A stretch of 32,000 bases of DNA from Methanosphaera stadtmanae DSM 3091. GTDB lineage: Archaea > Methanobacteriota > Methanobacteria > Methanobacteriales > Methanobacteriaceae. The notes under the pieces were generated by a model. It was not told the DNA's origin and searched no databases. It saw only the letters and a list, made by a program, of their open reading frames with translations. Below, one piece after another: positions 3,111 to 24,953 of the stretch. The DNA lies in contig NC_007681.1 in NCBI RefSeq assembly GCF_000012545.1, forward strand, positions 810,001-842,000, read 5' to 3'. Made by a program: the position numbers and the translations under genes. The stretch's first letter is position 1; the number at the start of each line of letters is the position of its first letter.

Positions 3111-3368
3111 TTGGAAACAAAAATAGAAAAACAATATAATAAAATATTAGATGAAATAAAAACACTTGACGAATTAATACAAACAACAGAATATACACAT
3201 AATACAACAAAAGAATTAAAACAAGCAATAATCAATACAATACAATCACTAGTAGACCAGGAAGCAGAATACACATACAATGAAATAAGATATAATGGTT
3301 ACTTTGACAAAATAAGAGATGCAAAAATAAAACTTGGATTAGCAAATGAAACAGAGAGGAAATCATGA
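3111..3368 (+). CDS. hypothetical helical protein (TTG start)
   Basis: An 85-aa ORF with A-rich coding-strand bias like neighbouring plus-strand genes. Its stop overlaps the ATG of the next small ORF (ATGA). I recognised no family. Confidence 0.4.
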   Translation: METKIEKQYNKILDEIKTLDELIQTTEYTHNTTKELKQAIINTIQSLVDQEAEYTYNEIRYNGYFDKIRDAKIKLGLANETERKS

Positions 3369-3472
3369 AAAAACGAAGAAAACATTTAACACGTGATGAT
3401 ATAGCATGTATAATGGCAGTTATTGGAGTGCTTGTTATTATTTTTTTAAAGAATGCTGGTTTCGTTTGTTAG
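3365..3472 (+). CDS. hypothetical 35-aa single-pass membrane peptide
   Basis: My own translation is MKKRRKHLTRDDIACIMAVIGVLVIIFLKNAGFVC*. It has a basic N-terminus followed by one hydrophobic helix. The ATGA overlap with the upstream ORF suggests coupling. It is below the ORF-track length cutoff. Confidence 0.3.
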   Translation: MKKRRKHLTRDDIACIMAVIGVLVIIFLKNAGFVC

Positions 3473-3810
3473 GGAAAAATAAGTAGTTAACTGATAAAAG
3501 AGGTGAACTAGGAAATATAAGATAAGGAATACTAGTTTATCGTTAGTAGGCTGTAAAATAGAGTAAATTAATATAATAAGATGAAAAATAAGTAAACAAT
3601 AATTTACATGTAATAACTAAACTATAAAGTAATATGAATCTCAAAAGATTAGGAGTATAGTTATATGGCCGTTCCACGACAAATCTTCTAATTTATATTA
3701 TCCGAATAGTCCCTATGAGTTTAGTGTACTTCCCCTTGAAATTAGGTCAAGTATATGAGAATTTTTTAGGAAAAACAACATTTAAAGTAGCAAAAATATA
3801 GAAAAAGAAA

Positions 3811-3845: not shown

Positions 3846-4032
3846 TAAAACTAATTTTAAAAAATAATATTAAAAATTCACTCCCACAACGAAGTAAAAT
3901 AATTCTCGTGAGCCTGCTTCAAAAAAAATAATAAAAAAATAAAAAACAGACTATATCTAAACAATTGTCATTCACATCATATATATATAAAAAGGAATTA
4001 TATAAAAATTAAGAATTACATAAAACAATTAC

Positions 4033-4882
4033 ATGAGTAAAAATAACAAAAGTCTTTTTGATGATTATAAAAAATTTGAAAGAATACTAAAAATTAATCC
4101 AGATAATAACGTTTTAGACACAAGTACAGAAGATTTTTTAGCACCTACAACTTTAATTCCTCTTTTAATACACGCTATTAAAAAATGATATTCAAGAATT
4201 TCATACTCATAAAGATACACGAGATTATGTATTACATATATTAAAAAGAGAACAAATAGGTAATAACACACCATTTAGGATATTACCAAAAACTAAAGAA
4301 GCTTTTAATGATGAATCAATTTCAATGGAAGTTGGAAATTTAATTACAGAGGATTATGCGGGAAAACAATCAATTAACTTCGTTATCTCAGAATTGGTGA
4401 ACAATATATATGATCATACATCATTCGAAAAAAAATATGCAAGTCATGGTTATATCTATGCTCAACTATATCCTATCTGGAAAAAATTAGATATAACTGT
4501 ATATGATGATGGATTATCTATTCCTGGAAGATTTGATAAATCAAATGTAGACTATGAAAATGATTGTCATGCTATTGAAAAAGCATTAACCCAATTTACA
4601 ACTATCAAAAATAGACAATCTGAACGAGGAAATGGATTAGGGTCATGTATGAAATTAATCAAAGCTAATAAAGGTTCAGCTTTAATTGTTTCTAGAAAAG
4701 GATGTTTAGAAGTAGATGAAAAAAGAAAAAAATATCATTATCATAACCTAAACAATGAAAAATTATTCAAAGGAACATTAATAACATTAAGATTTAGGGA
4801 TAACCCCATAAATTTTTATGAAGCATTGGATGATGGATACATTCATGGAACACCCTACAAATACGTGGAGAATAATATATGA
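4033..4882 (+). pseudogene. GHKL/HATPase_c ATPase (RsbW/SpoIIAB-like), read in two frames with the switch at an A6 tract (4180-4185)
   Basis: Frame 1 runs from ATG 4033 to TGA 4186-4188 (MSKNNKSLFDDYKKFERILKINPDNNVLDTSTEDFLAPTTLIPLLIHAIKK*). Frame 2 is open from 4169 and runs without any ATG/GTG/TTG into the tracked ORF at 4325-4882. ATPase motifs are the N-box ELVNNIYDH, G1 YDDGLSIPG and G2 ERGNGLGSCMKL. Confidence 0.6.
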
Positions 4883-5139
4883 AAAAAATAATTTTAAACG
4901 AAATTTACTCTTCTCATTTAGAAATGAGTTTCACAGCAGAAGATTTATTTACCAATCAAATAAACAACAATGACTTTTCAGAGATAATAATAGATTTCAC
5001 AGGAATAACATTCATGAGCTTGTCATTCACACAAGAATATGTCTACCAAAAAACCCATACAAGTAAGAAAATAACAGAAATAAAAATGCATGAAGACATT
5101 AAACCAATGTTAGAACTAGTAGAAAAAAGAGAAAAATAA
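4879..5139 (+). CDS. STAS-like DUF4325 domain protein
   Basis: An 86-aa ORF whose ATG overlaps the stop of the ATPase (ATGA). The core IIIDFTGITFMSLSFTQEYV resembles the DUF4325 signature (lDF.gV..issSF.dE). Confidence 0.6.
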   Translation: MKKIILNEIYSSHLEMSFTAEDLFTNQINNNDFSEIIIDFTGITFMSLSFTQEYVYQKTHTSKKITEIKMHEDIKPMLELVEKREK

Positions 5140-5346
5140 ACCATTTAATGTATATGTACTGTATGATAATTACTAATTTTTAAACTCTTTTACTAAATAA
5201 AAAAAATCACGTCCATCTAATAAAAGGGGAATGATGTGATGGTGTACATAGAAAGAACAAAAATTGAACAGTATGTATATCAATAGTAAGTAAAAATATA
5301 ACGTAAACCTAATTAATAAAAAAATATTCAAAAAAAAAGAATAAAT

Positions 5347-5592
5347 TTATTGTTTATCTTTATGATAAACATCTAAAAATACTATAAAATCTTTTTGCTC
5401 TTCATAAACATAAGACAAACGAAATGGAGAAACATACACCTCAAGAGTACCCTTACGATTATGTCTCATAGGCTTACCAATCACTGGATTAGACACAATT
5501 TTCCGTATCTGCTTCTTAACACGAAGCTTATAAGTATTATCAAGATTGGATATAACTTTACAAAAATGGTCATCATAAGATACAGTTACCAT
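5347..5592 (-). CDS. relE: RelE/ParE-family type II toxin
   Basis: 81 aa. The sequence ...NPVIGKPMRHNRKGTLEVYVSPFRLSYVYEEQKDFIVFLDVYHKDK is the typical RelE C-terminal core. The start overlaps the upstream gene's stop by 7 nt (ATGGTAA). Confidence 0.8.
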   Translation of the reverse strand: MVTVSYDDHFCKVISNLDNTYKLRVKKQIRKIVSNPVIGKPMRHNRKGTLEVYVSPFRLSYVYEEQKDFIVFLDVYHKDKQ

Positions 5593-6128
5593 TTTTCCAA
5601 CTCACCCAGAAAATCAGATTCACCCATAGAAACAAGAGAACTTTCATCAATATCAGTAAGTAAATTTTTTACATGTTTTTCATGTTCAAAATCATCTTTA
5701 AGAATATGATGGTTAAAATATTGTTCATGTTCTATTAACTTGTCATGTATATATGGTAGTTTAGTTTCGTATTCTGTTTGACTAATCTTATCTTCCATGT
5801 AATATGAAACAATTAAATCTAATAGTTGTACGGATAGTTTTTGTAATTCAAGTCCAAAGGTTAAGTTAGTTAATGTATTATTTTCTTCAATAATATAGTT
5901 TACATTATCATTTGCTGTCTTGACTTCCATTAGTTCATCGTATAATTCATATAAGTGTTCTGTGGGTAATTTATTGTTTTTGATTCTGAGGGATATGTCG
6001 TTTATTTGGTAGTTCAGTTGGGAGTATGAATCAGAGTCAATCTCTTTGATTAGAGAGTAGGAGCCAAGGTTAGTGAAAAAGTGGGATATGGTATTATTGA
6101 AGGTTTGAAAAGCATTTATGTTCATCAT
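5586..6128 (-). CDS. putative cognate antitoxin, unusually large (about 180 aa), no recognised family
   Basis: It sits immediately upstream of relE and overlaps it. I trimmed the start to MMNINAF (ATG at 6128), which has a GGTGA ribosome-binding site 7 nt upstream. The tracked start at 6242 would add a hydrophobic low-complexity leader. Confidence 0.5.
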   Translation of the reverse strand: MMNINAFQTFNNTISHFFTNLGSYSLIKEIDSDSYSQLNYQINDISLRIKNNKLPTEHLYELYDELMEVKTANDNVNYIIEENNTLTNLTFGLELQKLSVQLLDLIVSYYMEDKISQTEYETKLPYIHDKLIEHEQYFNHHILKDDFEHEKHVKNLLTDIDESSLVSMGESDFLGELEKW

Positions 6129-6356
6129 ATTATTTTCACCTTCTGTATGTTTAATATTATTATAATTCTTTGTAGTATATACAATTATTGTACTAATAAA
6201 GTGAATTATAAAATACATAAGATGAACTAAAATAATATTCAATTTATTTTTTTGTATGTTTGGTAATATTTTTTAATATAATTAGTATGACTTAAATAAT
6301 AAATACTTCTTAAAAGATAACTATCAATAGAAAGAATTAATGGAGAAATTTTTATT

Positions 6357-7133
6357 ATGAAAAAAGGTGAAAGATATGAAAATCCTTATTTAACTGAAGT
6401 TATAGTAAGGATTAATTTTTCTACAATACTTGCATTATCAGGTAATAATGAAAGTGCTGCAGAAGATTTTCGTAAGAATATATTTGAACAATATCCAATA
6501 GCCTTACTGAAAAAAAATCATGAAGTGAATATTGGATTAAATATTCAATCAGATGGCTTTAATCAAATTAATCAAAGAGATAAAATAATATGGGAATTTA
6601 AAAATAAAGAAGATAATAAAAAAATAGAATTATCTGATTCATATGTTTTATTAACATACACTAAAGAAGCTTATACCAATTTCCGATATTTACTACAAGA
6701 CATCATATTAATATTAGATGCATTGAAAAAATATTCTCCTATAAACCCACATTTACTCCAGTTACGATATATTAATCAACTATCAGGTAAATCAATTGAA
6801 GAATTAACTAAATGCATTAACAAACCTTATTTCAATGAAGAGATAATAGATTTAAATGGTAAGGATACCTTTGTTCAAAATCTAAGTAGATTAACAATAA
6901 CTGAAGGAAAATATCTTTTAAATACCCAATATGGACTGTTTAATCCAGGTTATCCGAATCCAAATTTTGAAAAGAATTATATACTTGATTTTGACTGTAG
7001 TTTTTATAACATTGAATCAATGAATCAAATAAATGAAGAATTAAAAGAAATGAATTATTTTATATGGAAGCAATTCCAATTAGCTATAACAGATAAACTA
7101 AAAAAAGAAATGAAAGGTGAATTAGATGAATGA
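6357..7133 (+). CDS. TIGR04255-like uncharacterised protein
   Basis: 258 aa. The N-terminus ERYENPYLTEVIVRINF matches the remembered family signature (Y.nPPl.Ev..e.rF). A GGAG lies upstream of the ATG. Confidence 0.55.
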   Translation: MKKGERYENPYLTEVIVRINFSTILALSGNNESAAEDFRKNIFEQYPIALLKKNHEVNIGLNIQSDGFNQINQRDKIIWEFKNKEDNKKIELSDSYVLLTYTKEAYTNFRYLLQDIILILDALKKYSPINPHLLQLRYINQLSGKSIEELTKCINKPYFNEEIIDLNGKDTFVQNLSRLTITEGKYLLNTQYGLFNPGYPNPNFEKNYILDFDCSFYNIESMNQINEELKEMNYFIWKQFQLAITDKLKKEMKGELDE

Positions 7134-7584
7134 AACAATATCATATAATGAATTAGAAAAAACCAATTCAAATAATATTCACCCTTATTCTGAACATAGT
7201 AAAACAATAAGCACTGACGATTATTTTAAACAACTTTCAGAAAATAAATTCTATTCTGAATTCCAAGAATATTTATCAAACAATTATTCACTTATTAACA
7301 AAGAAGAAATAATTAATTTTATAAGTTATAAACCATTACTTACAGAGCTCATTAAAGAATTAACTGTAATAATTAGAAAAAGTTTTGAAAAAAATGAATT
7401 AAGTATGGAATTCATACAAGATCCAGAAATAACTGACTTAAAATATTTAAATATATATATCCATTCTAGTGAAGAATCATTTAATAAAGATTGGAATACT
7501 TTGAAAATAATAAACCAAGATATTAGACAATTAAAATTACTGGATAATTCAATCAAAAAATATATACTGGTGGATTTGTGGTAA
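7126..7584 (+). CDS. hypothetical protein, middle gene of the TIGR04255/HEPN operon
   Basis: A 152-aa ORF whose start overlaps the upstream stop (ATGAATGA). The next gene starts 3 nt after its stop. I recognised no motif and no nucleotidyltransferase GS/DxD signature. Confidence 0.55.
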   Translation: MNETISYNELEKTNSNNIHPYSEHSKTISTDDYFKQLSENKFYSEFQEYLSNNYSLINKEEIINFISYKPLLTELIKELTVIIRKSFEKNELSMEFIQDPEITDLKYLNIYIHSSEESFNKDWNTLKIINQDIRQLKLLDNSIKKYILVDLW

Positions 7585-7587
7585 AAT

Positions 7588-7944
7588 ATGGGGTTTGATT
7601 GGAAAAAATATCACGAGGTAGGGGAACATCTTAAAAACTATTCTGAAGATGAAGCATATCAACGTGCAGCTATCAGCAGATATTACTATGCTTATTTCAA
7701 TATAATTAGGAGATACTTTGAAAAAAAGCACTATGAAATTCATTCTAAATATGTACATCAAAAACTTATAGATGAATTAAAGAATTCCCTTGATGATAAT
7801 GAATATCAACTGAGTGATTATTTAAAAAGATTCCGTGGGTATAGGAATAATGCAGATTATGATGACAAGTTTAAAGCACGGAATATACAAAAAACACAGA
7901 AATTAATTAAAGATATGGATAAGATATTATCTAAACTTCAATAA
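7588..7944 (+). CDS. HEPN-domain protein
   Basis: 118 aa. It has AYQRAAISRYYYAYFNIIRRYF ... LKRFRGYRNNADYD, the four-helix HEPN pattern (a.sRaYYA.Fha ... lr..R..ADY). A GGTGG ribosome-binding site lies upstream. Confidence 0.7.
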   Translation: MGFDWKKYHEVGEHLKNYSEDEAYQRAAISRYYYAYFNIIRRYFEKKHYEIHSKYVHQKLIDELKNSLDDNEYQLSDYLKRFRGYRNNADYDDKFKARNIQKTQKLIKDMDKILSKLQ

Positions 7945-9034: not shown

Positions 9035-12000
9035 ATGAAGAATAAAATATTAATATCTTCTATATTTTTAATAGTATTATTATTTAGTCTTTCAACAATA
9101 ACGGCAGTAGACACTAATACAACAAATATGAATACAATAGAAAAACAAACAACAGACACGACAAAATCTACTCTAAACATAGTATCAAACAATGATAATA
9201 ATGAACTTAAATTTAATACAACAAAAAAAGAAATTATTCCAAAAAATAAGGAAATTAAAACAAAAACCAGTTCAATTAAAGAACATGGAATAGCTAACAC
9301 TAAAACTTTAAAGAAAAATAATGAAGTTAGTTATTATGTATCAACAACAGGATCAGATAATAATACAGGTTCAAAAGATAATCCATATAAAACAATACAA
9401 TATGCAATTGATAAAACAACAACAAATAATACATATAACATTTTCATTAAATCAGGAAATTATACCGGGGTAGGAAATACTAACTTAACAGTAAATGGTA
9501 ATCATAAAATTAACTTCATTGGTGAAGGTATCAATAAAACAATACTTGATGGAGAAGCAAATTATGTGATAGACCCTAATCCTGGTTATGTATGGGAAAG
9601 TTCAAAAATTTGGTGGCCATATATTAATGCTACAGGTAATTATGGAATGACTATAACAAAGGGTAATGGACATATTTCTATTTATAATTTATCAATAGCT
9701 CATATGTGGAGTCCTGGAGGAAGTAGTATCAGTGCATATCCTCATGCAACTATTGATAATTATGGAAATTTAAGCATAAACTCTGTAGAATTTCATGAAA
9801 ATTATGCAGGTGTAGGAGCAGGTGTTAGAAATAATTATGGTGCAACATTACTAGTTAATAATTCCCTATTTGAAGAAAATCGTAAAAGTAGTTCTACAGG
9901 AAATAATGGAATTATTTATAATAATGGTACAGCAACCATATTAAATTCATTATTTAATCATAATTATGCTCGTTGGGGAACAATATTAAATGATAACAAT
10001 ATCACTATGATAAATACAACATTATCTAATGGTATTGGTTATGATGGAAAGAGTGGTTATAAATATGGAAGTGGTTTTGCATGTAACTCTGGTGGGGCTG
10101 ACTTTTATTTACCAGGATTTTTCTTAACATACAATAATATAATCAATTGTACTTTTATTAAAAATGATCAAAGTGATATTTATGGTTATCAAGGAAACAT
10201 TTATGCTTATGGAAATAAATTTATTAATTCTACAGGTATTAGGTTAATTGATAGTCAAAATTCAAATATAACCTATAATATTATAAACAATTCAATGGAA
10301 GATATTGTAGAATCTACTATTAGTACTACTTTAACTACTGGTGCTAGAACATATGCTATTGATGCTCAAATTACTAGTAATAATTTGACTATAATAAATA
10401 ACACAATTTCAATGGATAGAGGTACTGCTATCAGTATAAAAAAAGGAAATATTATTAACAATACAATTATTATGTATGGTCCATCACATGTTATAAAAAA
10501 AGCTATAGAAGTTAGTGGATCTAATTCTACAATAACTAATAATATTATAAATGAATATATTGAACTTAAGGGAAATTCAAATATAATTACTAAAAACAAT
10601 ATAGAAACAACTTCAAACTATGCAATATCAGTATATAATTCTGCTATTAATAATACTATTGTAGAAAATAATTTAGTTTCTAAAGAATTAATTGGAGATT
10701 ATGCTGTATATGGAAATAATATAAAAAATACAATTATAAATAATACTCCAATGCCTAATAGTGATGATTTATATGTAAGTCCTATTGTTAATGAAGCAAG
10801 AAATGGAACTATGGATAATCCAACTTCTTTAACTGATGCACTAGAGAGAATAACAAGTACAGGTACAATATACTTATTTTCAAAAAATAAAAAATATGAC
10901 TTATTAAATTCAGTAATAATTAATGAAACAACTGTTAAAAATACAAAAACAGTACGTATCAAAGGAATTTTAAATAATACTCCTGTATCTGGAAATAACA
11001 AAACTCAACTATTTAATATAAAAGAAGGATTTACTGTAATACTGGATAATTTAAAATTTATCAATGGTACTTCATCGAATGGTGGGATAATATATTCAGA
11101 AGGAAATTTAACAGTAACTTCATCAATATTCCAAGATAGTTATGCAGACAATGGTGGGGCAGTATTTATAAATAAAAGTGGAAATCTTATATTAAAAAAT
11201 AACTCTTTTAAAAATATAAGTTCTCTAAATGAAACATTAATATTTAATTCAATAGGAAACAATCTATTAGAAAATAATACTTATGAAAATTGTGATATTA
11301 AATTAAAAAAATTTACAATAACAGCAAGTACTTCAAATCCAAATCCTATTCTAGTAAATAATACTATAACTGTTAATATAGATAATGTAATTCTAGAAAA
11401 TCCAACATATTATGATAGTAACATAACAAATAATATCAATTATAGTATTTATAGAAATGATATTTTATTAGATACAATTACTACAACTTCTTATACATTA
11501 AATTCAACAATACCTACTAATATTACAACATATATAATATCTAATTTTTCAAAAGAAAAATCAAATACATTAACATTTAATATAATTTACTTAAAAGCAA
11601 AAGCAATAACTTCAAACACTCCAACTACTATTGTGTTTATTAATGAGGATATACACATCACAACAACATTAATTGATGAATTTAATCAACCAGTAACTAG
11701 TGGAGTTATTAGTTATTATAATAATACAATCCTTATGGGTACAGTAGAAGTAATAAATGGAAGTGCAAGATTAACATTAAATAAAACATCTAATATTGGA
11801 ACAACAGAAATAACTATAAAGTATACTGATGCTAGTAATATCTATGAAAATCATACAAATAAAACATCACTTGTAATATTAGATAATGTATATGTAAGTT
11901 CAGAAGTTACACAACCAGCTTCAGGATCAATAGATAATCCAACAACACTTACTGATGCTTTATCTAAAATAAAAGATGAAAAAACAATATATTTACTTAA

Positions 12001-15000
12001 TGGGATTTATTATATAAATAATCAAATAACAATTAGTAAAAACACTACTAATGCAACGACATTTAATATTATTGGTCAAAAAGATGTAACATTTTTTGGA
12101 CAAAATAAATCATCCATGTTAAATATTACTAAAGATTTTACTATAAAAATTACTAATATTACTTTTAGAAATATAAATAAAGAAGGACTTTATGGTGCAA
12201 TAGTTAATATGGGAAAATTAACATTGATAAATACTACTTTTTTAAATAATTATAATGAATATGCTGAGGGTACTGCATTACATAACTATAATGGTACTGT
12301 TATAATAGAAAATTCATCATTTATTAATAACACTGGGAAAAATGGTGGAGTAATATTTTCAAAAGGTAATTTATCTATATCTAATACATTATTTACTAAT
12401 AATTCTGCAGAATATGGTGGAATAATTTATTCAGCAGGATATGTTCAAAGAATAATGTTATATCCAGGATTTTTCATATATAAAGTAATGTCTGGAAATC
12501 TTACAATATCTAACACTACATTTAATAATTCCATAGCAAAAGAGGATTATGGAGCAATATATTTCTTAGGAATAGATTTAGTATTAGAAAACAATACTTT
12601 TAGTAATATTCAATCAAAAAATGAAACAATAGTAATTAAAGAAATTACAAATAGAATTATGAAAAATAATGTGTATATTAACTGTTCTATAAACTCAACA
12701 ATTCAAATATCCTCTGATGCTACAAATCCATCACCTATGAAGGTAAATGATACTTTAAAATTCAATATAGATAATATAAAAATTAAGAATCCTAGAAATT
12801 ATGATGATAACATAACAAGTAGTATTAAATATAATATATATTTAAATAATATTAAAATTGACACAACAGATTATAATCCAAATTCATTTAATATAATACC
12901 TACAATACATGATACAGTAACATTATATGTCATACCTACATTTACTAAAACTAAATCAAACACACTTATTGATGTGGAAATATATGATCTTAAAAATACT
13001 ATTATTAAAGCAGAAAACACAGTAAGTTATAGTGATGAAAATACGACAATAAATATATCAGTAACTGATAAATTAGGAACATTAGTATCTGATGGTGGAA
13101 TAATAAGGATATATGAAAATAATATATTGTTAGGTGAAGCTCCAACTCACAATGGTGTAGCTATTATTAAAATAAATCCATTATCAACAGGAATACATAA
13201 TATAACTATAAAATATATTGGAACAGAAACGGGAATTTACAATAATCAAACAAACACATCATCTATATTCTCATTGGGAAAACATGTCTATGTAAGTCCA
13301 GATGTAACTGAAATACAAGAAGGTACATTATCTAATCCAACAACACTTAATGATGCTTTATCAAAAGTTGGAAACTATGGAACAATACATCTATTATATG
13401 GTACTAATGGAATATATTTCATTAATGAACCAATATATGTAGCTTATGGATATTTACATTCAACTACTAATAATATTAATATAATAGCTCAAAATAGAGT
13501 AATATTTGATGGTAGTGGTAATAATATGAGAATAATGAGTATAATTTATCGAAATGTATCTATGACTAATATCTCCTTTATCAATTCTAGATCAATAGTT
13601 AATAATGGAAATTTAACTTTAATAGATTGTATATTTGATAATAATACTGCAGAAATAAAAAATGGTGGAGCAATTGAGAATAATGGACATTTAATTATTA
13701 TAAATAGCACATTTATAAACAACAAAGCTATTAATGGTGGAGCAATTAGTAATGGGGGAACTATTGAAACAAAAGGAAAAATATTATTCAAAAACAATGT
13801 TGCAGAACAAGGTGGAGCAATTAGTAATAATAATTTTGGAAAAATAGATATGAATGGTGAAATTTTATTCATAAATAACACTGTTAAAGGAAATAATAAT
13901 GTCTATGCTGGAGCAATCTATAACTTAGGAAATATAACATTAACAGGTAACACTTTATTTATAAATAATACAGCAAGTGGTAATAGTATTATTTATGGTG
14001 GAGCAATTTACAACAAAGGAAATATAACTAGTATAGGAAATACTACCTTTAATAATAACAAAGTAATAGCAGTAACTGCAGGATCTGGAGGCTCAATATA
14101 TAGTTTAAGTGGTGTACTTATTTTTGAAGGAAACAACACCTTTAATAATAATGAAGCTACTACAAATGGAGGAGCAATACAATTACCAACTTCAAATACT
14201 AAATTAATATTAAATAACAATACTATATTTAGTAATAATAAGGCATATGAATCTGGAGGAGCTATGTCTATCTTGACAGCCCTATTTGAAATAAATGGAA
14301 ATATAACATTTAGAAATAATTCTGCAGATAAAGGTGGAGCATTATATTTAGTTGGAAGTAAATATATTCCACGTAAGTATAATATAGTAAATGCTATATT
14401 TTTAGATAATAAAGCATTTATTGAAGGTGGAGCAATTTACACAAATTACATAAATCTAACATTAGAAAATAATACTTTTACTAATATAATAAGTCCAAGT
14501 GAAACATTATTCCTAAATACTACAGGAACAAATATTTTATCTAATAATACATATATAAACTGTTCAATATTAACAACACCTATAATATTAAATTCAAACA
14601 AGTCCCCAAACTTTTTATTAAAAATAAATAGTACTATTATATTAATGCTTGAGCAATTTGAATTAATAAATCCTAGTTATTATGATAGTAACATATTAGA
14701 TAATGTTTCATATAATATATATAGAAATGATGAACTTATAAAAAATAGTGATTCAATGATATATAACTTAATAGTTGATACAGATAGACAGATAACTACA
14801 TATATTATTCCAAGTATTTTAAGTACTAAATCAAACATATTAACATTTAAAGTACAAAGTTATACTAATGTAATAATAGATCCAGTAATTGCACAAGTAG
14901 GCGATATAATTAATTTAAGAGCACAAGTAACAGATAGTGAAGGAAATCCAGTATCTAATGGACGTGTAATATTTAAAGTAAATGGTAAAACAATAAGAGA

Positions 15001-15490
15001 TAATAATGGAAATATAATTTATGTACAAGTAATTAATGGAATAGCTATACTTGAAAATTATAGAGTACCAACAACTTGGATAAAATCAAAACCAGTACTA
15101 AATGCAGTTTATGGTGGAAATAATCAATATATAACTGGAAGAACAAATAATACGATACCAATGAATATAACTAAGAAAGAAGTATCTATGACAATGACAA
15201 CAAACACTACAACAGTAAAACCAGGCCAAACAATAAAAATAACAGTGAAAATAACAGAAAAAGATACTAATGTAAATGAAGGACAGGTATTATTTAAGGT
15301 AAATGGTAAAACAATGAGAGATAATAAGGGATATATAGTCTACCATGAAGTTAAAGATGGACTAGTAACAATAACATACACAATACCAGAAAATGCCAGA
15401 GCACAAGACTATACATTCACATGTGTATATGGACACAAGTTATACAATAGAAACGATATAAACAGCACCATAACTGTTGTAAAAAACTAA
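9035..15490 (+). CDS. giant (2151 aa) secreted Asn/Thr-rich adhesin-like surface protein with four right-handed beta-helix/PMP-repeat modules and Ig-like domains
   Basis: A single uninterrupted ORF with a GGAGG ribosome-binding site. The signal/anchor is MKNKILISSIFLIVLLFSLSTITAVD. GGA[IVM] and FxNN motifs recur. The beta-helix cap motif YVS...NP(T/Y)..(L/I)..A(L/I) appears four times. Ig-like segments sit at the C-terminus. Confidence 0.9.
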   Translation: MKNKILISSIFLIVLLFSLSTITAVDTNTTNMNTIEKQTTDTTKSTLNIVSNNDNNELKFNTTKKEIIPKNKEIKTKTSSIKEHGIANTKTLKKNNEVSYYVSTTGSDNNTGSKDNPYKTIQYAIDKTTTNNTYNIFIKSGNYTGVGNTNLTVNGNHKINFIGEGINKTILDGEANYVIDPNPGYVWESSKIWWPYINATGNYGMTITKGNGHISIYNLSIAHMWSPGGSSISAYPHATIDNYGNLSINSVEFHENYAGVGAGVRNNYGATLLVNNSLFEENRKSSSTGNNGIIYNNGTATILNSLFNHNYARWGTILNDNNITMINTTLSNGIGYDGKSGYKYGSGFACNSGGADFYLPGFFLTYNNIINCTFIKNDQSDIYGYQGNIYAYGNKFINSTGIRLIDSQNSNITYNIINNSMEDIVESTISTTLTTGARTYAIDAQITSNNLTIINNTISMDRGTAISIKKGNIINNTIIMYGPSHVIKKAIEVSGSNSTITNNIINEYIELKGNSNIITKNNIETTSNYAISVYNSAINNTIVENNLVSKELIGDYAVYGNNIKNTIINNTPMPNSDDLYVSPIVNEARNGTMDNPTSLTDALERITSTGTIYLFSKNKKYDLLNSVIINETTVKNTKTVRIKGILNNTPVSGNNKTQLFNIKEGFTVILDNLKFINGTSSNGGIIYSEGNLTVTSSIFQDSYADNGGAVFINKSGNLILKNNSFKNISSLNETLIFNSIGNNLLENNTYENCDIKLKKFTITASTSNPNPILVNNTITVNIDNVILENPTYYDSNITNNINYSIYRNDILLDTITTTSYTLNSTIPTNITTYIISNFSKEKSNTLTFNIIYLKAKAITSNTPTTIVFINEDIHITTTLIDEFNQPVTSGVISYYNNTILMGTVEVINGSARLTLNKTSNIGTTEITIKYTDASNIYENHTNKTSLVILDNVYVSSEVTQPASGSIDNPTTLTDALSKIKDEKTIYLLNGIYYINNQITISKNTTNATTFNIIGQKDVTFFGQNKSSMLNITKDFTIKITNITFRNINKEGLYGAIVNMGKLTLINTTFLNNYNEYAEGTALHNYNGTVIIENSSFINNTGKNGGVIFSKGNLSISNTLFTNNSAEYGGIIYSAGYVQRIMLYPGFFIYKVMSGNLTISNTTFNNSIAKEDYGAIYFLGIDLVLENNTFSNIQSKNETIVIKEITNRIMKNNVYINCSINSTIQISSDATNPSPMKVNDTLKFNIDNIKIKNPRNYDDNITSSIKYNIYLNNIKIDTTDYNPNSFNIIPTIHDTVTLYVIPTFTKTKSNTLIDVEIYDLKNTIIKAENTVSYSDENTTINISVTDKLGTLVSDGGIIRIYENNILLGEAPTHNGVAIIKINPLSTGIHNITIKYIGTETGIYNNQTNTSSIFSLGKHVYVSPDVTEIQEGTLSNPTTLNDALSKVGNYGTIHLLYGTNGIYFINEPIYVAYGYLHSTTNNINIIAQNRVIFDGSGNNMRIMSIIYRNVSMTNISFINSRSIVNNGNLTLIDCIFDNNTAEIKNGGAIENNGHLIIINSTFINNKAINGGAISNGGTIETKGKILFKNNVAEQGGAISNNNFGKIDMNGEILFINNTVKGNNNVYAGAIYNLGNITLTGNTLFINNTASGNSIIYGGAIYNKGNITSIGNTTFNNNKVIAVTAGSGGSIYSLSGVLIFEGNNTFNNNEATTNGGAIQLPTSNTKLILNNNTIFSNNKAYESGGAMSILTALFEINGNITFRNNSADKGGALYLVGSKYIPRKYNIVNAIFLDNKAFIEGGAIYTNYINLTLENNTFTNIISPSETLFLNTTGTNILSNNTYINCSILTTPIILNSNKSPNFLLKINSTIILMLEQFELINPSYYDSNILDNVSYNIYRNDELIKNSDSMIYNLIVDTDRQITTYIIPSILSTKSNILTFKVQSYTNVIIDPVIAQVGDIINLRAQVTDSEGNPVSNGRVIFKVNGKTIRDNNGNIIYVQVINGIAILENYRVPTTWIKSKPVLNAVYGGNNQYITGRTNNTIPMNITKKEVSMTMTTNTTTVKPGQTIKITVKITEKDTNVNEGQVLFKVNGKTMRDNKGYIVYHEVKDGLVTITYTIPENARAQDYTFTCVYGHKLYNRNDINSTITVVKN
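9332..14869 (+). repeat. four tandem protein-level modules inside the giant gene, starting near 9332, 10772, 11891 and 13289
   Basis: Module heads are YYVSTTGSDNNTGSKDNPYKTIQYAIDK, LYVSPIVNEARNGTMDNPTSLTDALERI, VYVSSEVTQPASGSIDNPTTLTDALSKI and VYVSPDVTEIQEGTLSNPTTLNDALSKV. Modules 2-4 also share NNTY(E/I)NC...NP.(Y/N)YD.NI...Y(N/S)IY(R/L)N...SNTL/SNIL blocks. Confidence 0.7.
13600..14470 (+). other. densest run of polymorphic-membrane-protein-type repeats (GGAI ... FxNN) within module 4
   Basis: More than ten successive units, for example NGGAIENNGHLIIINSTFINNKAINGGAISNGGTI...AEQGGAISNNNFG...YAGAIYNLGNITLTGNTLFINNTA...YGGAIYNKGNITSIGNTTFNNN... Confidence 0.7.
14870..15487 (+). other. two C-terminal Ig-like (Big-type) domains
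   Basis: Paired segments VGDIINLRAQVTDSEGNPVSNGRVIFKVNGKTIRDNNGNIIY... and PGQTIKITVKITEKDTNVNEGQVLFKVNGKTMRDNKGYIVY... have a beta-sandwich-like pattern. Confidence 0.55.
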
Positions 15491-24059: not shown

Positions 24060-24953
24060 TCTCTATAATGGAATATACTACTCCTTCTCGTACAGTTTTA
24101 TGACTTACATGGATTTGTTTTATATTAAAATATTCTGCAATTGTTGCTATTATGACAAGACCTGGTACAAGTGTATGTATACGTTCTGCTTTTACTTGAA
24201 GAATTTTAGTAAAATATTCTTTATTATTTTTATTTAATTCACTTTGTAATTTTTTAAGCATTGCTGGTGTTATAATAGATGTTTTGTCTTCTTTTATACA
24301 TATATGTTCCAATACCTTTTTAATAGCACGTATTGTACCACCAACAGCATATAAGTGGGTGACTGTATGTTTATTTACTTCTGATTTTTTAATTTTCTCT
24401 AATACATCATTTCTTATAGCTTCACATTCACTAGTTGATGGTAACATAACAGATACATATTTGTAGTAACTATTTAGTGAGCCAATATCTATACTTGTTA
24501 ATTCTTGTGGTGTTCTATTGTTAAAGTAAACAATTTCAGAACTTCCTCCACCAACATCACAGAGAATACCCTCATCAGATGTCATTTTTCCACTATTTTT
24601 AACAGCATTAAAACTCATCATAGCTTCAGTTTTACTCTCAAGTAAATATATATCAATATTAAGTTCTTCTTTTATAAGTTGAAGAATATCATCACTATTT
24701 TTGAGATTTCTTATACTAGCAGTTGCAAAGTAACAAACATTATCAACTTTTAATTGAATAAGATTCTTTTAAATGATTTTAATATGGATAATAATGTTTG
24801 AATTCCTTCATCATTTAATTTATTATTTTCTTTATATGAAATAAGACCAGCTGTTTTCTTTTTTGAAATTATTGTTTTAAGTTTTCCTTTTTTATACTGG
24901 TATAGTTGTAATCTTATTGTATTTGAACCTATATCTACTACTGAATATATCAT
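24037..24953 (-). pseudogene. ppx: Ppx/GppA-family exopolyphosphatase, split between two reading frames (switch within 24752-24770)
   Basis: The N-terminal ORF at 24953-24750 (MIYSVVDIGSNTIRL...) ends at TAA. A second frame is open from 24768 and reads KNLIQLKVDNVCYFATASIRNLKNS...LCDVGGGSSEIVYF..., which is the rest of the Ppx/GppA fold. Its 3' end overlaps the ppk1 start by 23 nt. Confidence 0.7.

What the first reader, a model, noticed from the sequence alone, without database searches (positions are those of the whole stretch)
4033..5139. RsbW/RsbV-like pair (GHKL ATPase plus STAS-like DUF4325) in an archaeon, interrupted at an A6 tract
Two translationally coupled genes (ATGA overlap at 4879-4882) encode a HATPase_c protein and an 86-aa STAS-like DUF4325 protein (IIIDFTGITFMSLSFTQEY). 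The ATPase has the N-box ELVNNIYDH, DDGLSIPG and GNGLGSCMKL. In bacteria this kinase/STAS pairing is the logic of partner-switching modules that control sigma factors. Archaea have no sigma factors, so the output here is unknown. The pair sits among toxin-type modules (RelE, HEPN), which would fit a conflict or defence role.

The ATPase is read in two frames. A 51-codon N-terminal ORF (4033-4188) ends just after AAAAAA. The ATPase frame is open from 4169 but has no start codon before 4325. A TATA-like TATATAAA (3999-4006) about 30 nt upstream of ATG 4033 would fit a short-leader transcript of the full-length gene.
Basis: partly seen in the sequence, partly recalled or inferred. Interest (0 to 1): 0.7.

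Follow-up and report, generated by a model that had tools for sequence, protein, structure and literature searches.

The report
Broken archaeal VapK/VapS-like kinase–STAS pair
This is a real two-gene kinase/substrate switch of a kind described in bacteria in 2026 (CapK/CapS, VapK/VapS), found here in the human gut methanogen Methanosphaera stadtmanae. In this strain the kinase gene is knocked out by one extra A, and intact copies still circulate in other strains.

Summary
**Observation.** Confirmed. ORF 4033-4188 ends AAA AAA TGA, and the GHKL frame runs on to 4882. It overlaps (ATGA) an 86-aa DUF4325 gene at 4879-5139. The window is Methanosphaera stadtmanae.

**The lesion.**
- Deleting one A gives a 282-aa protein. 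That protein is identical to an allele found intact on 21 metagenome contigs.
- It is colinear with about 270-290-aa homologues, so 4033-4188 belongs to the gene.
- The A6 lesion is not an assembly error. Five independent assemblies carry it.
- Other strains carry different lesions: +A at 4428 (very common), -A at 4481 plus a 37-bp deletion, and -A at 4726.
- The alleles are linked to a synonymous SNP. This is ordinary pseudogenisation that is polymorphic in the species, not recoding.

**Identity.**
- The kinase profile aligns over both domains with Escherichia VapK (hhalign E 3e-8). This includes VapK's ssDNA-sensing Phe (F35 here).
- The partner is a STAS fold with an invariant Ser47 at the start of helix α2, like VapS, which is itself a DUF4325 protein.
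- SpoIIAB is the nearest solved fold.

**Differences and context.**
- There is no VapC toxin, no VapS C-terminal tail and no HTH, so the output is unknown.
- The pair is co-conserved in Methanobacteriales. It sits on proviruses and in toxin-antitoxin (TA) and defence islands.

**Verdict.** A new variant of a known kind, of moderate interest.

The parts
4033..4882 (+). Whole kinase gene (VapK-like: N-terminal STAS-like domain plus GHKL domain). It is a frameshifted pseudogene in this strain. The intact form is 282 aa.
   Evidence: Deleting one A of 4180-4185 gives a protein identical to P0110, which is encoded intact on 21 metagenome contigs at the same locus. Homologues are 270-290 aa and colinear. 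hhalign against VapK gives E 2.9e-8 over both domains.
4033..4188 (+). 5' fragment: 51 codons holding the first half of the STAS-like sensor domain, ending at TGA 4186-4188.
   Evidence: The sequences LFDDYKKFERI and FLAPTTLIPLL are conserved in all full-length homologues.
4135..4146 (+). F35-L-A-P motif. It aligns with VapK F54-L-R-P, whose Phe is required for VapK function and is the predicted ssDNA contact.
   Evidence: hhalign alignment. F is present in 54/66 and W in 2/66 family members, and P38 in 63/66. The role of F54 is taken from PMC13373217.
4180..4185 (+). A6 tract, the site of the inactivating 1-nt insertion. The ancestral and intact state is A5, reading I-K-N-D-I.
   Evidence: Homologues read K-N-[ND]-I here. 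Intact alleles L022-L031 have A5, while the window and L001-L005 have A6.
4325..4882 (+). The 185-aa ORF as annotated in public records (WP_011406304.1, 'ATP-binding protein'). It is the GHKL domain only.
   Evidence: Exact look-up. No Shine-Dalgarno-like sequence lies before ATG 4325.
4391..4417 (+). N-box ELVNNIYDH (E120, N124 and H128 are invariant).
4505..4528 (+). G1 box DDGLSIPG (D158 and G160 are invariant).
4625..4642 (+). G2 box RGNGLG (G199 and G201 are invariant).
4428..4435 (+). A8 tract. It is A9 in the commonest alternative null allele of the species (products P0107 plus P0105).
   Evidence: L032-L040 carry the extra A. An in-silico edit reproduces P0105 and P0107 exactly. P0105 is indexed in 372 blocks of the collection.
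4481..4486 (+). A6 tract. It is A5 in a third null allele (P0112). In contig L053 that allele also carries a 37-bp deletion of 4577-4613.
4726..4732 (+). A7 tract. It is A6 in a fourth null allele (P0114, 238 aa).
4867..4870 (+). GGAG ribosome-binding site for the partner gene, lying inside the end of the kinase gene.
   Evidence: Read from the sequence. This is inference only.
4879..5139 (+). Partner gene: an 86-aa single-domain STAS-like (DUF4325, VapS-like) protein. It is intact here.
   Evidence: AF2 model pLDDT 96 with a β-α-β-α-β-α topology. Foldseek top hits are STAS domains, including SpoIIAA, RsbV and TM1442. hhalign against VapS gives E 8e-6. VapS itself is Pfam DUF4325 at E 3e-17. 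The exact sequence was seen on 652 contigs.
5017..5025 (+). S47-L48-S49, the predicted phospho-acceptor at the N-cap of helix α2.
   Evidence: S47 is invariant in 78/78 partners, and position 49 is only S or T. Helix α2 starts at residue 48. VapS S48 aligns within ±1 residue.
4882..4888 (+). A7 tract at the partner's start. It is A6 in rare alleles that fuse the partner to an upstream frame (P0122, P0123).
3999..4006 (+). TATA-like TATATAAA, 27 nt before ATG 4033. This is a possible promoter for a near-leaderless mRNA.
   Evidence: The motif is present, but it is no more frequent than chance in this AT-rich window (16 seen against 20 expected). It is unverified.

Best explanation
Window 4033-5139 of Methanosphaera stadtmanae holds a two-gene kinase/substrate switch of the CapK/CapS-VapK/VapS family.

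**Gene 1.** When intact it encodes a 282-aa protein with an N-terminal STAS-like sensor domain and a C-terminal GHKL Ser/Thr-kinase domain. SpoIIAB is the nearest solved fold.

**Gene 2.** It encodes an 86-aa single-domain STAS protein (DUF4325).

**Inferred mechanism, by homology with VapK/CapK.**
- The kinase is switched on by a stress signal, most likely single-stranded DNA bound in the groove between its STAS and GHKL domains, with F35 as a contact.
- It then phosphorylates the partner on the invariant Ser47 (or S/T49) at the start of helix α2.
- Phosphorylation changes what the partner binds.

**The output is different here.** This Methanobacteriales form has no VapC toxin gene. The partner has no C-terminal inhibitory tail and no DNA-binding domain. 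The thing controlled must therefore be encoded elsewhere, or be the kinase itself. The cassette travels on proviruses and in toxin-antitoxin and defence islands, so a conflict or stress role is likely.

**State in this strain.** The kinase gene is dead. One extra A (A5 to A6 at 4180-4185) stops translation after codon 51. This is a heritable lesion. It is one of at least four independent kinase-inactivating alleles in the species, and an intact allele persists at low frequency. The partner gene is still intact.
For: **SHOWN: the gene and its lesion.**
- Homologues are full length and colinear with the repaired ORF.
- The exact repaired protein, P0110, is encoded intact at the syntenic locus on 21 contigs.
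- A6 is identical in 5 independent assemblies.
- Other strains carry +A at 4428 (L032-L040), -A at 4481 plus a 37-bp deletion (L053), and -A at 4726.
- The alleles are in linkage disequilibrium with the synonymous SNP 4408. Fisher p = 4.7e-4 for A6 with 4408A, and p = 0.008 for A9 with 4408C.
- Neighbouring genes with similar A-run content stay intact. TIGR04255 has an A8 tract, yet its exact sequence is on 441 contigs.
- Related species show independent decay: L006 has a frameshifted kinase and a multiply frameshifted partner, L013-L015 are 5'-truncated, and L056 is split.

**SHOWN: family identity.**
- The AF2 model has pLDDT 86.5 and pTM 0.88.
- The best PDB folds are SpoIIAB chains 1tid_C, 1til_E, 1l0o_A and 1th8_A, with TM 0.65-0.69 normalised on the target.
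- E120, N124, H128, D158, G160, G199 and G201 are invariant.
- hhalign of the family against VapK gives 95% probability, E 2.9e-8 and 216 columns across both domains. FLAP aligns with FLRP.
- A deeper HMM scores VapK at 44.7 bits. The same kind of profile finds no PDB chain at E <= 1, SpoIIAB and RsbW included.
- The partner model has pLDDT 96 and STAS top hits.
- The partner profile's best PDB sequence hit is 'Escherichia VapS', and hhalign gives E 8e-6.
- VapS is Pfam DUF4325 at E 2.7e-17. The L043 partner passes the DUF4325 cut-off at 29.6 bits.

**SHOWN: co-conservation.**
- The partner lies directly downstream in 9 of 10 genome loci and 13 of 16 metagenome loci.

**SHOWN: context.**
- Next to a provirus integrase (L011; L045, an IMG/VR viral contig).
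- At a provirus end after tail and lysis genes (L041).
- In an AbiE/HepT-MNT island (L043).
- Between an MmeI-like RM system and an SNF2-PLD protein (L016).
- With ImmA plus DUF4411 (L017, L009).
- Here beside a ParE-like gene and a HEPN gene.

**INFERRED from PMC13373217.**
- Activation by ssDNA.
- Phosphorylation of the conserved Ser.
- A switch in what the partner binds.
Against: - No biochemical step was tested here.
- The window proteins' own Pfam scores are below the gathering cut-offs.
- In the ungapped alignment VapS S48 falls between S47 and S49 of the partner, so the acceptor residue is assigned only to within ±1.
- The STAS nature of the kinase's N-domain rests on the alignment to VapK and on secondary structure. 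A direct profile comparison of the N-domain with the partner family was not significant (probability 1%). No fold search of the isolated N-domain could be run.
- Two defining parts of VapKSC are absent: the VapC gene and the VapS C-terminal tail. Both HTH domains of CapKS are also absent. The output is unknown, and the mechanism may differ more than assumed.
- Stable inheritance of the alleles rests on 25 contigs that were picked by protein identity.
Confidence: 0.72

Rival explanations
1. Phase variation. The A tracts act as a contingency switch, and slipped-strand changes turn the kinase on and off reversibly within populations.
For: - All single-base lesions sit in A runs of 5-8, at 4180, 4428, 4481 and 4726. 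There is also one at the partner's start, 4882.
- On and off alleles coexist in the species.
- Defence genes are classic phase-variable loci in bacteria (established knowledge).
Against: - The tract states are tied to a synonymous SNP haplotype. A6 occurs only with 4408A, and A9 only with 4408C. That fits single, inherited events.
- One lineage has added a 37-bp deletion, which is irreversible.
- The A-run density of the gene (8.2 per kb) is matched by neighbours that stay intact.
- A5 to A8 tracts are short for efficient switching.
- Relatives decay by other routes, such as 5' truncations.
Confidence: 0.12
2. Programmed recoding. The full-length kinase is still made from the A6 allele, either by +1 ribosomal frameshifting at AAA-AAA-UGA or by transcriptional slippage. 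This would give low, regulated expression of a dangerous protein.
For: - The shift site is a homopolymer directly followed by a stop codon, which is a favourable layout in known +1 sites.
- Apart from the single lesion, both reading frames are clean.
- The A9 allele has a tract length at which bacterial RNA polymerases slip appreciably (established knowledge).
Against: - The site is not conserved. All 60-odd homologues and the intact M. stadtmanae allele are single ORFs with A5 or other codons here.
- Different strains are broken at different places.
- No stimulatory element was sought or seen.
- The simplest reading is a 1-nt insertion.
Confidence: 0.04
3. The annotated 185-aa ORF (4325-4882) is a functional stand-alone GHKL kinase. 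It has lost its sensor domain and works with the partner in a constitutive or differently regulated way.
For: - The ORF holds the complete GHKL domain with all catalytic motifs.
- RefSeq annotates it as a normal gene.
- The partner gene is intact and has its own GGAG.
- SpoIIAB and RsbW are themselves single-domain kinases.
Against: - No ribosome-binding sequence lies before ATG 4325, and no homologue starts there except other broken copies such as P0020 = L006.
- The other common allele breaks the GHKL domain itself at residue 134. Loss of kinase function is therefore tolerated or favoured.
- The missing part carries the residue that VapK needs for function.
Confidence: 0.06
4. A housekeeping RsbW/RsbV-type stress-signalling pair of the cell. 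Under this reading it is a general partner-switching regulator rather than a mobile conflict module.
For: - SpoIIAB is the best solved fold match.
- JGI labels relatives 'anti-sigma regulatory factor' and 'anti-anti-sigma factor'.
- Two-gene kinase-plus-STAS modules whose targets are encoded elsewhere exist in bacteria, for example SypE/SypA (PMC10120452, from the listing).
Against: - The pair sits at different genomic places in different genomes. It lies on viral contigs and next to integrases, TA and RM genes.
- It is repeatedly lost or broken.
- No PP2C phosphatase or other recurrent third gene is nearby.
- At the sequence level VapK is far closer than SpoIIAB or RsbW.
- Archaea have no sigma factors (established knowledge).
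Confidence: 0.07
5. Sequencing or assembly artefact. The extra A is a homopolymer error in the source genome.
For: Homopolymer miscounts are a common error type (established knowledge).
Against: - The same A6 is present in five assemblies from five different sequencing projects. The window-identical 185-aa product is on 233 contigs.
- A6 is linked to specific SNPs.
Confidence: 0.01

Closest known systems
VapKSC toxin-antitoxin/anti-phage system (VapK kinase, VapS STAS antitoxin, VapC PIN toxin); Chambers et al., EMBO J 2026, PMC13373217
   Same: - The kinase has the same two-domain build (STAS plus GHKL, about 280-300 aa) and aligns with VapK over both domains, including F35 = VapK F54.
- The partner is a small DUF4325 STAS protein, like VapS, with a conserved Ser/Thr at the start of helix α2.
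- The gene order is kinase then STAS, tightly coupled.
- It sits in defence and TA neighbourhoods.
   Different: - No VapC/PIN gene was found in any of 12 distinct loci examined.
- The partner stops right after the STAS domain (86 aa against 116). It lacks the C-terminal helix with which VapS blocks VapC.
- The lineage is different. Methanobacteriales are absent from the paper's list, which does hold Methanosarcina and Methanococcoides.
- It is often provirus-borne.
- One relative has a Fic/DOC gene in the third position instead (L060).
CapK/CapS regulators of immune operons (same paper)
   Same: The pair is a GHKL kinase with an internal STAS domain plus a STAS-domain substrate. The inferred logic is the same: ssDNA activates the kinase, the kinase phosphorylates the substrate Ser, and the substrate lets go of its target.
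   Different: - CapK has an extra N-terminal HTH. Here only one helix (residues 8-21) precedes the STAS strand.
- CapS carries a winged-helix DNA-binding domain. The 86-aa partner has none.
- In the window no downstream operon lies on the same strand. The next gene is convergent.
SpoIIAB/SpoIIAA and RsbW/RsbV partner-switching modules of Bacillus
   Same: - SpoIIAB is the best solved-structure match for the kinase domain.
- SpoIIAA, RsbV and TM1442 are among the best matches for the partner.
- The N-box is of the E-x3-N-x3-H type.
   Different: - No sequence-level match was found. The family profile finds nothing in the PDB at E <= 1.
- The kinase has an added STAS-like domain.
- There is no sigma factor in archaea and no phosphatase gene nearby.
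- The distribution is mobile and patchy.
PIN.4 / DUF4325 gene coupling noted by Matelska et al., NAR 2017 (PMC5499597)
   Same: It is the same DUF4325 family. [quoted passage not shown]
   Different: There is no PIN partner here. The paper does not mention the kinase.

Membership tests
GHKL (Bergerat-fold) ATPase/kinase superfamily | N-box with the catalytic Asn (E-x3-N), a G1 box D-x-G-x-G and a G2 box G-x-G | tested here: met
   E120, N124, H128, D158, G160, G199 and G201 are invariant in 66 family members. The second G of G1 is S in 55/66 and G in 9/66.
GHKL (Bergerat-fold) ATPase/kinase superfamily | Bergerat fold | tested here: met
   The AF2 model has pLDDT 86.5. All top Foldseek PDB hits are GHKL proteins: SpoIIAB, GyrB/ParE and Hsp90.
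GHKL (Bergerat-fold) ATPase/kinase superfamily | Pfam HATPase_c score above the gathering threshold | tested here: inconclusive
   The window protein scores 22.1 bits against a cut-off of 26.4. At E <= 0.1, 32 of 66 relatives hit, the best at 1.7e-6. VapK itself scores only 23.4 bits.
DUF4325 (PF14213), STAS-like | Pfam score above the gathering threshold | tested here: inconclusive
   The window partner scores 20.8 bits against a cut-off of 23. Of 14 relatives, 11 hit. The L043 partner passes at 29.6 bits, and VapS scores 62.7 bits.
DUF4325 (PF14213), STAS-like | STAS fold (alternating β-α units) | tested here: met
   The AF2 model has pLDDT 96. Foldseek top hits are the STAS domains of SLC26 transporters, SpoIIAA (1thn_B), TM1442 (1vc1_A) and RsbV (6m36_D). 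TM is up to 0.67, but E-values are weak (>= 0.02), as is usual for an 86-aa domain.
VapKSC | Kinase homologous to VapK over both the STAS and GHKL domains | tested here: met
   hhalign gives probability 95%, E 2.9e-8 and 216 columns (query 27-257 against VapK 46-291). An HMM of 187 family members scores 44.7 bits.
VapKSC | Conserved aromatic residue in the kinase STAS domain (VapK F54 / CapK W68), needed for function | tested here: met
   F35 aligns with F54. F is present in 54/66 and W in 2/66 members.
VapKSC | STAS partner with an absolutely conserved Ser/Thr at the start of helix α2 | tested here: met
   S47 is invariant (78/78) and is the N-cap of helix 48-59. Position 49 is S (56) or T (22). 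The register against VapS S48 is uncertain by ±1.
VapKSC | Partner has a C-terminal region (VapS residues 94-116) that inhibits the toxin | tested here: not met
   The partner ends at residue 86, with the last STAS helix at 74-85. Most relatives are 85-97 aa.
VapKSC | Third gene encoding a VapC-like PIN toxin | tested here: not met
   In the window the next gene is convergent. No recurrent third gene and no PIN were found in 12 distinct loci. DUF4411 (PIN-like) lies upstream in L017 and L009, but as part of an ImmA-type module.
VapKSC | ssDNA-dependent phosphorylation of the partner; phage protection | not testable with these tools
   This needs biochemistry and genetics.
CapK/CapS | CapK N-terminal HTH domain | tested here: not met
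   Only one helix (residues 8-21) precedes the first STAS strand in the model. No HTH family appeared in the Pfam scans.
CapK/CapS | Substrate carries a winged-helix DNA-binding domain | tested here: not met
   The 86-aa partner is a single STAS domain.
CapK/CapS | Pair sits directly upstream of an immune operon on the same strand | tested here: not met
   The downstream gene (5347-5592) is on the opposite strand. Downstream genes differ between loci.
RsbW/RsbV (SpoIIAB/SpoIIAA) partner switching | Kinase and STAS antagonist with SpoIIAB-like and SpoIIAA-like folds | tested here: met
RsbW/RsbV (SpoIIAB/SpoIIAA) partner switching | Kinase sequesters a sigma factor | not testable with these tools
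   Archaea have no sigma factors (established knowledge). No alternative target could be identified.
RsbW/RsbV (SpoIIAB/SpoIIAA) partner switching | Cognate PP2C phosphatase encoded with the pair | tested here: not met
   No recurrent neighbouring gene was found across loci. The rest of the genome was not searched.
Programmed frameshift / recoding site | Shift site and two-frame layout conserved among orthologues | tested here: not met
   Orthologues and the intact conspecific allele are single ORFs. Other strains are broken elsewhere.
Phase-variable contingency locus | Tract length varies independently of the surrounding haplotype | tested here: not met
   A6 occurs only on 4408A (6 of 9 such contigs, 0 of 16 with 4408C). 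A9 occurs only on 4408C (9 of 16, 0 of 9). Fisher p = 4.7e-4 and p = 0.008 on a small, non-random sample. Within-clone heterogeneity could not be tested.

The most novel reading that the evidence does not exclude
In Methanobacteriales the two-gene cassette is a complete partner-switching device in which the kinase is both sensor and effector. ssDNA from DNA damage or viral replication activates it. It phosphorylates and releases the small STAS protein. One of the two proteins then binds a host or viral factor that is not encoded in the cassette, for instance a basal transcription factor, which would be the archaeal counterpart of an anti-sigma factor. The cassette sits next to the integrase in Methanobrevibacter proviruses, so it could be the long-sought DNA-damage sensor for provirus induction or superinfection exclusion in archaea, which lack LexA-type SOS control. 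The repeated knock-out of the kinase, with the STAS gene retained, in M. stadtmanae would then reflect selection against a growth-arresting effector.
Probability: 0.12. Interest if true: 0.75.

Novelty: new variant of a known kind. Interest (0 to 1): 0.4.

Why it matters
- It fixes an annotation. The 185-aa 'ATP-binding protein' of M. stadtmanae (WP_011406304.1) is the 3' part of a frameshifted 282-aa gene.
- It places a large family of unannotated proteins next to the newly characterised CapK/VapK kinases. The exhaustive search returned 3,858 cluster representatives. The closest 150 are mostly 255-285 aa and match over nearly full length.
- It links Pfam DUF4325 to VapS-type kinase substrates.
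- It shows that a toxin-less, HTH-less two-gene form is common on proviruses and islands of gut and rumen methanogens. That raises a concrete question: what does the STAS protein or the kinase act on?
- M. stadtmanae offers natural intact and null alleles at one locus. These are ready-made material for testing function in a human-associated archaeon.

Tried and rejected
- **Profile search of the PDB with the kinase family.** No hit at E <= 1, so there is no sequence-level link to SpoIIAB or RsbW.
- **hhalign of the kinase N-domain against the partner family.** Not significant (probability 1%, E 0.04 for one comparison). It did pair IDTS..FLAPTT with IDFT..FMSLSF. I left this as a hint only.
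- **PADLOC.** No model exists for the partner. The kinase matches only the N-terminal part of one DrmA model.
- **NCBIfam.** Nothing for either protein.
- **tblastn of a VapS fragment against plasmids.** No match.
- **Naming the wider family.** None of the 10 representatives tried carries a source name, so the taxonomic reach beyond Methanobacteriales is unknown. Two loci with 39-42% GC (L058, L059) hint at other hosts.
- **Search for a recurrent third gene by all-against-all BLAST of neighbours.** None was found.
- **tRNA or integrase near the pair in the window.** None.
- **Promoter claim.** The octamer is not over-represented.
- **Literature on DUF4325.** Three papers mention it, and only one is informative.
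- **Complex prediction.** The tools return no coordinates, so a linker-fused kinase-partner complex prediction would not have been interpretable. I did not run it.
Full report
**1. What is in the sequence**

The description is accurate.
- A 51-codon ORF (4033-4188) ends ...GCT ATT AAA AAA TGA, with the A6 run at 4180-4185.
- The next frame is open from 4169, has its first ATG at 4325 and stops at 4880-4882.
- The 86-codon partner ORF starts at 4879 (ATGA overlap) and ends at 5139. A GGAG lies 8 nt upstream of its ATG (4867-4870).
- Removing one A joins the two pieces into 282 codons.
- The quoted motifs are present: ELVNNIYDH, DDGLSIPG, RGNGLG, and IIIDFTGITFMSLSF in the partner.
- The window is 25.5% G+C.
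- The proposed TATA box TATATAAA (3999-4006) exists. The octamer occurs 16 times in the window against 20 expected by chance, so it carries no weight on its own.

**2. Source organism**

Six window proteins are identical to proteins of Methanosphaera stadtmanae, the 1,767,403-bp genome.
- The 185-aa ORF is ABC57104.1 / WP_011406304.1, annotated 'ATP-binding protein'.
- The partner is ABC57105.1, 'DUF4325 domain-containing protein'.

The 'archaeon' part of the claim is right.

**3. The 51-codon ORF is the true 5' end of the gene**

- The repaired protein finds 68 relatives. Nearly all are 270-290 aa and cover 96-98% of it.
- The N-terminal blocks LFDDYKKFERI and FLAPTTLIPLL are conserved.
- At the junction the relatives read K-N-[ND]-I. 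That is exactly what the window reads after dropping one A (A-I-K-N-D-I-Q). The ancestral state was therefore ATT AAA AAT GAT, and the lesion is a 1-nt insertion (A5 to A6).

**4. The lesion is real, heritable, and one of several**

*A6 is not an assembly error.* Five contigs from five unrelated sequencing projects carry the identical A6 and stop codon.

*The protein's 90% cluster holds several alleles.*
- Intact 282-aa alleles, P0110 and P0111. It is encoded at the syntenic locus on 21 contigs, and loci L022-L031 were read.
- A very common allele with A5 at 4180 but A9 in place of A8 at 4428. Its products are P0107 and P0105. L032-L040 were read, and P0105 is indexed in 372 blocks of the collection.
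- An allele with one A fewer at 4481 (P0112). In contig L053 it also carries a 37-bp deletion of 4577-4613 between short A-rich repeats.
- An allele with one A fewer at 4726 (P0114).
- Rare alleles with one A fewer at 4882, which detach the partner from its start codon (P0122, P0123).

In-silico single-A edits reproduce each of these proteins exactly.

*Rough frequencies.* Counts of contigs carrying exact sequences suggest:
- A6 on about 240 contigs.
- A9 on at least about 250.
- The intact allele on about 30.

*Controls.*
- The partner's exact sequence is on 652 contigs.
- Neighbouring genes are overwhelmingly full length. TIGR04255 has an A8 run of its own, yet its exact sequence is on 441 contigs.
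- The gene's density of A/T runs of six or more (8.2 per kb) is not unusual for this locus: HAD has 9.9 and HEPN 8.4.
- The mutational opportunity is therefore general, but only the kinase is found broken at high frequency.

*Stable lesions or fast switching?*
- A synonymous SNP at 4408 is tightly associated with the alleles. A6 occurs only with 4408A, on 6 of 9 such contigs and on 0 of 16 with 4408C (Fisher p = 4.7e-4).
- A9 occurs only with 4408C (p = 0.008).
- Intact alleles occur on both backgrounds.
- Each frameshift therefore arose on a different intact haplotype and has been inherited since.
- Flanking SNPs show recombination, and the sample is small and was chosen by protein identity. 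This is good but not final evidence.
- The 37-bp deletion added to the -A allele is irreversible decay.

*Relatives decay too.*
- L006 (Methanosphaera sp. rholeuAM74) has an independent frameshift at another A run and a multiply frameshifted partner.
- L013-L015 have 5'-truncated kinases with intact partners.
- L056 is split.

*Conclusion.* The window's gene is an ordinary pseudogene allele that is polymorphic in the species. It is not an error, not a recoding site, and probably not a phase-variable switch.

**5. What the two proteins are**

*Pfam alone is marginal.* The window kinase scores 22.1 bits on HATPase_c (cut-off 26.4). The partner scores 20.8 bits on DUF4325 (cut-off 23).

*Family-level evidence is firm for the kinase.*
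- 32 of 66 kinases hit HATPase_c.
- The kinase model is confident (pLDDT 86.5, pTM 0.88).
- Its best solved-structure matches are four SpoIIAB chains, with TM 0.65-0.69 on the target, followed by GyrB/ParE and Hsp90.
- E120, N124, H128, D158, G160, G199 and G201 are invariant.

*It is firm for the partner too.*
- 11 of 14 partners hit DUF4325, and one relative's partner passes the cut-off at 29.6 bits.
- The model has pLDDT 96, with strands at 2-5, 35-39 and 64-68 and helices at 17-28, 48-59 and 74-85.
- Its top fold matches are STAS domains: SLC26 transporters, SpoIIAA, TM1442 and RsbV.

**6. A closer relative than RsbW/RsbV**

*What the literature describes.* A search found Chambers et al., EMBO J 2026 (PMC13373217).
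- CapK has HTH, STAS and GHKL domains. It is an ssDNA-activated kinase.
- CapK phosphorylates Ser54 of CapS (STAS plus winged helix), which releases CapS from DNA.
- VapK (STAS plus GHKL) is proposed to phosphorylate Ser48 of VapS (STAS plus a C-terminal tail), releasing the PIN toxin VapC. The paper supports this with mutants and an AF3 model but could not assay VapK directly.
- vapKSC protects E. coli against a phage.

*Comparison with this family.* I took the VapK and VapS sequences from the paper's AlphaFold files.
- The kinase family profile aligns with VapK at 95% probability and E 2.9e-8, over 216 columns spanning both domains. F35-L-A-P falls on VapK F54-L-R-P.
- A deeper HMM scores VapK at 44.7 bits.
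- F54 is the residue whose mutation abolishes VapK-dependent protection. It is equivalent to CapK W68, the predicted ssDNA contact. In this family the position is F in 54 of 66 and W in 2 of 66 members.
- The kinase-family profile finds nothing in the PDB at E <= 1, although SpoIIAB and RsbW are there.
- The partner profile's best PDB sequence hit is 'Escherichia VapS' (9z7o_A, E 0.12). hhalign gives E 8e-6.
- VapS itself is a strong DUF4325 member (E 2.7e-17).
- In the partner, Ser47 is invariant (78/78) and caps helix α2. Position 49 is only Ser or Thr. VapS S48 aligns between them, so the acceptor is assigned to within one residue.

**7. Co-conservation and setting**

*Co-conservation.*
- The partner lies directly downstream in 9 of 10 genome loci, all Methanosphaera, Methanobrevibacter or Ca. 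Methanovirga.
- It does so in 13 of 16 metagenome loci. Of the three exceptions, one is a contig end, one a broken copy and one a distant 360-aa protein.
- A profile search finds 678 partner-like proteins. The best 120 listed are 81-108 aa, and all named ones are Methanobrevibacter.
- The exhaustive search finds 3,858 kinase representatives, 155 of them below 1e-30. The closest 150 are mostly 255-285 aa and match over nearly full length.

*Neighbourhoods differ from genome to genome and are typical of mobile conflict genes.*
- Directly after a provirus integrase: L011, and L045, a 41-kb IMG/VR viral contig.
- At a provirus end, after tail genes and a cell-wall-lysis-type gene (PG_binding_1 plus Peptidase_C39 domains): L041.
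- Between two AbiE and two HepT/MNT pairs: L043.
- Between an MmeI-like RM enzyme and an SNF2-PLD protein: L016.
- Behind ImmA-M78 plus DUF4411: L017 and L009.
- In the window, beside a ParE-like toxin pair and a TIGR04255/HEPN operon.
- The window itself has no integrase or tRNA.

**8. What is missing**

- None of 12 distinct loci has a PIN gene or any recurrent third gene.
- The partner ends with the STAS domain (86 aa). It lacks VapS's inhibitory tail.
- Neither protein has an HTH.
- One relative (L060) has a Fic/DOC gene in the third position. This shows that the effector slot can be filled differently.
- The Methanobacteriales cassette is therefore a two-gene variant whose output is not encoded with it.

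**9. How it most likely works**

*Shown.*
- The domain builds, the catalytic and acceptor residues, homology to VapK and VapS, co-conservation, mobile and defence settings, and the inactivating lesion.

*Inferred from the characterised relatives.*
- A stress signal, probably ssDNA, switches on the kinase through the STAS/GHKL groove.
- The kinase phosphorylates Ser47 (or S/T49) of the partner.
- Phosphorylation changes the partner's binding.

*Speculative.*
- The target. It could be a protein encoded elsewhere that the unphosphorylated partner holds in check. Or it could be the kinase itself, acting on a host factor once freed from its partner, which is classical partner switching.
- In five lineages the kinase is broken while the partner is intact (M. 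stadtmanae A6, A9 and -A at 4481; L013; L014/15). The reverse was never seen. This would fit the kinase being the costly component.
- However, the kinase is also a 3.3-fold larger target, so chance alone gives about 0.26. This is only suggestive.

*In this strain.* The switch is off. The 51-codon fragment holds half of the sensor domain, no ribosome-binding site precedes ATG 4325, and the other common allele breaks the catalytic domain itself.

**10. Novelty and score**

- The kind of system has been known since 2026, and vapKSC is already listed in Methanosarcina and Methanococcoides.
- New here:
  - the toxin-less, tail-less two-gene form that dominates in Methanobacteriales and rides on their proviruses;
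  - the assignment of a large unannotated protein family to the VapK type;
  - the population picture in a human gut archaeon.
- The copy in the window is a pseudogene.
- I rate it a new variant of a known kind, with interest 0.4.

Noticed in passing
window 24037-24953 (- strand): The exopolyphosphatase gene (Ppx/GppA) next to ppk is also split. An N-terminal piece runs 24953 to 24750 and stops after ...KRILFN. The 194-aa ORF 24621-24037 matches only positions 101-283 of the Pfam model. This is a second frameshifted gene in the same window.
   Followed up: partly
window 3976-3990: The (TA)n/A-run just upstream of the kinase gene's putative promoter varies in length among M. stadtmanae contigs (0 to 5 extra TA units). 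A T/A SNP at 3988 tracks the A6 allele.
   Followed up: no
L017:2370-6124 versus window 3112-3581: A related contig shares only the 85-aa plus 35-aa gene pair with the window (97% identity). It then carries ImmA-M78, DUF4411 (PIN-like), an MmeI_C fragment and a 34%-identical kinase/partner pair. The spot looks like a cassette-exchange hotspot. The 35-aa product is a small hydrophobic peptide of unknown role.
   Followed up: partly
L060:184-2228: A three-gene arrangement: kinase (207 aa, lacking the N-domain), partner (104 aa), and a Fic/DOC protein (331 aa, Pfam Fic E 1.6e-21). A different toxin family sits where VapC sits in vapKSC.
   Followed up: partly
L050:5832-6395 (also L051, L054); L019:4551-4808: Some loci carry two partner genes. 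In L050, L051 and L054 two DUF4325 paralogues lie in tandem downstream. In L019-L021 an orphan paralogue lies about 200 nt upstream of the kinase and lacks the conserved Ser pattern (ITMNF).
   Followed up: no
PADLOC model PDLC02567 (DrmA), positions about 140-290 of 1750: The GHKL domain of this family and of VapK both match the N-terminal part of one DISARM DrmA model (E 2e-9 for the window protein, 3e-4 for VapK). A DrmA subtype may carry a fused VapK-like kinase domain.
   Followed up: partly
L027 (M. stadtmanae contig), equivalent to window 5140-6350: One strain with the intact kinase allele lacks the ParE-like toxin and its 210-aa upstream partner. It also has an 84-aa form of the STAS protein.
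   Followed up: no
window 6357-7944: An overlapping three-gene operon: a TIGR04255-family protein (E 9e-37), a 152-aa protein of unknown function, and a HEPN protein (PADLOC HEPN_IX, E 8e-6). It is possibly another conflict module.
   Followed up: no
L009:1764-3674: A 636-aa HATPase_c_3 (MORC-like GHKL) protein lies just upstream of the kinase/partner pair in a goat-gut Methanobrevibacter. ImmA-M78 and DUF4411 lie further upstream.
   Followed up: no
window 9035-15490: A 2,151-aa Asn/Thr-rich repetitive surface protein with a signal-peptide-like start. It is typical of the adhesin-like proteins of gut methanogens.
   Followed up: no
window 4850-4864 (kinase residues 273-277): A C-terminal P-Y-K-Y motif (Y275 and Y277 are in at least 90% of family members) lies beyond the GHKL fold and has no counterpart in VapK. 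Its role is unknown.
   Followed up: no
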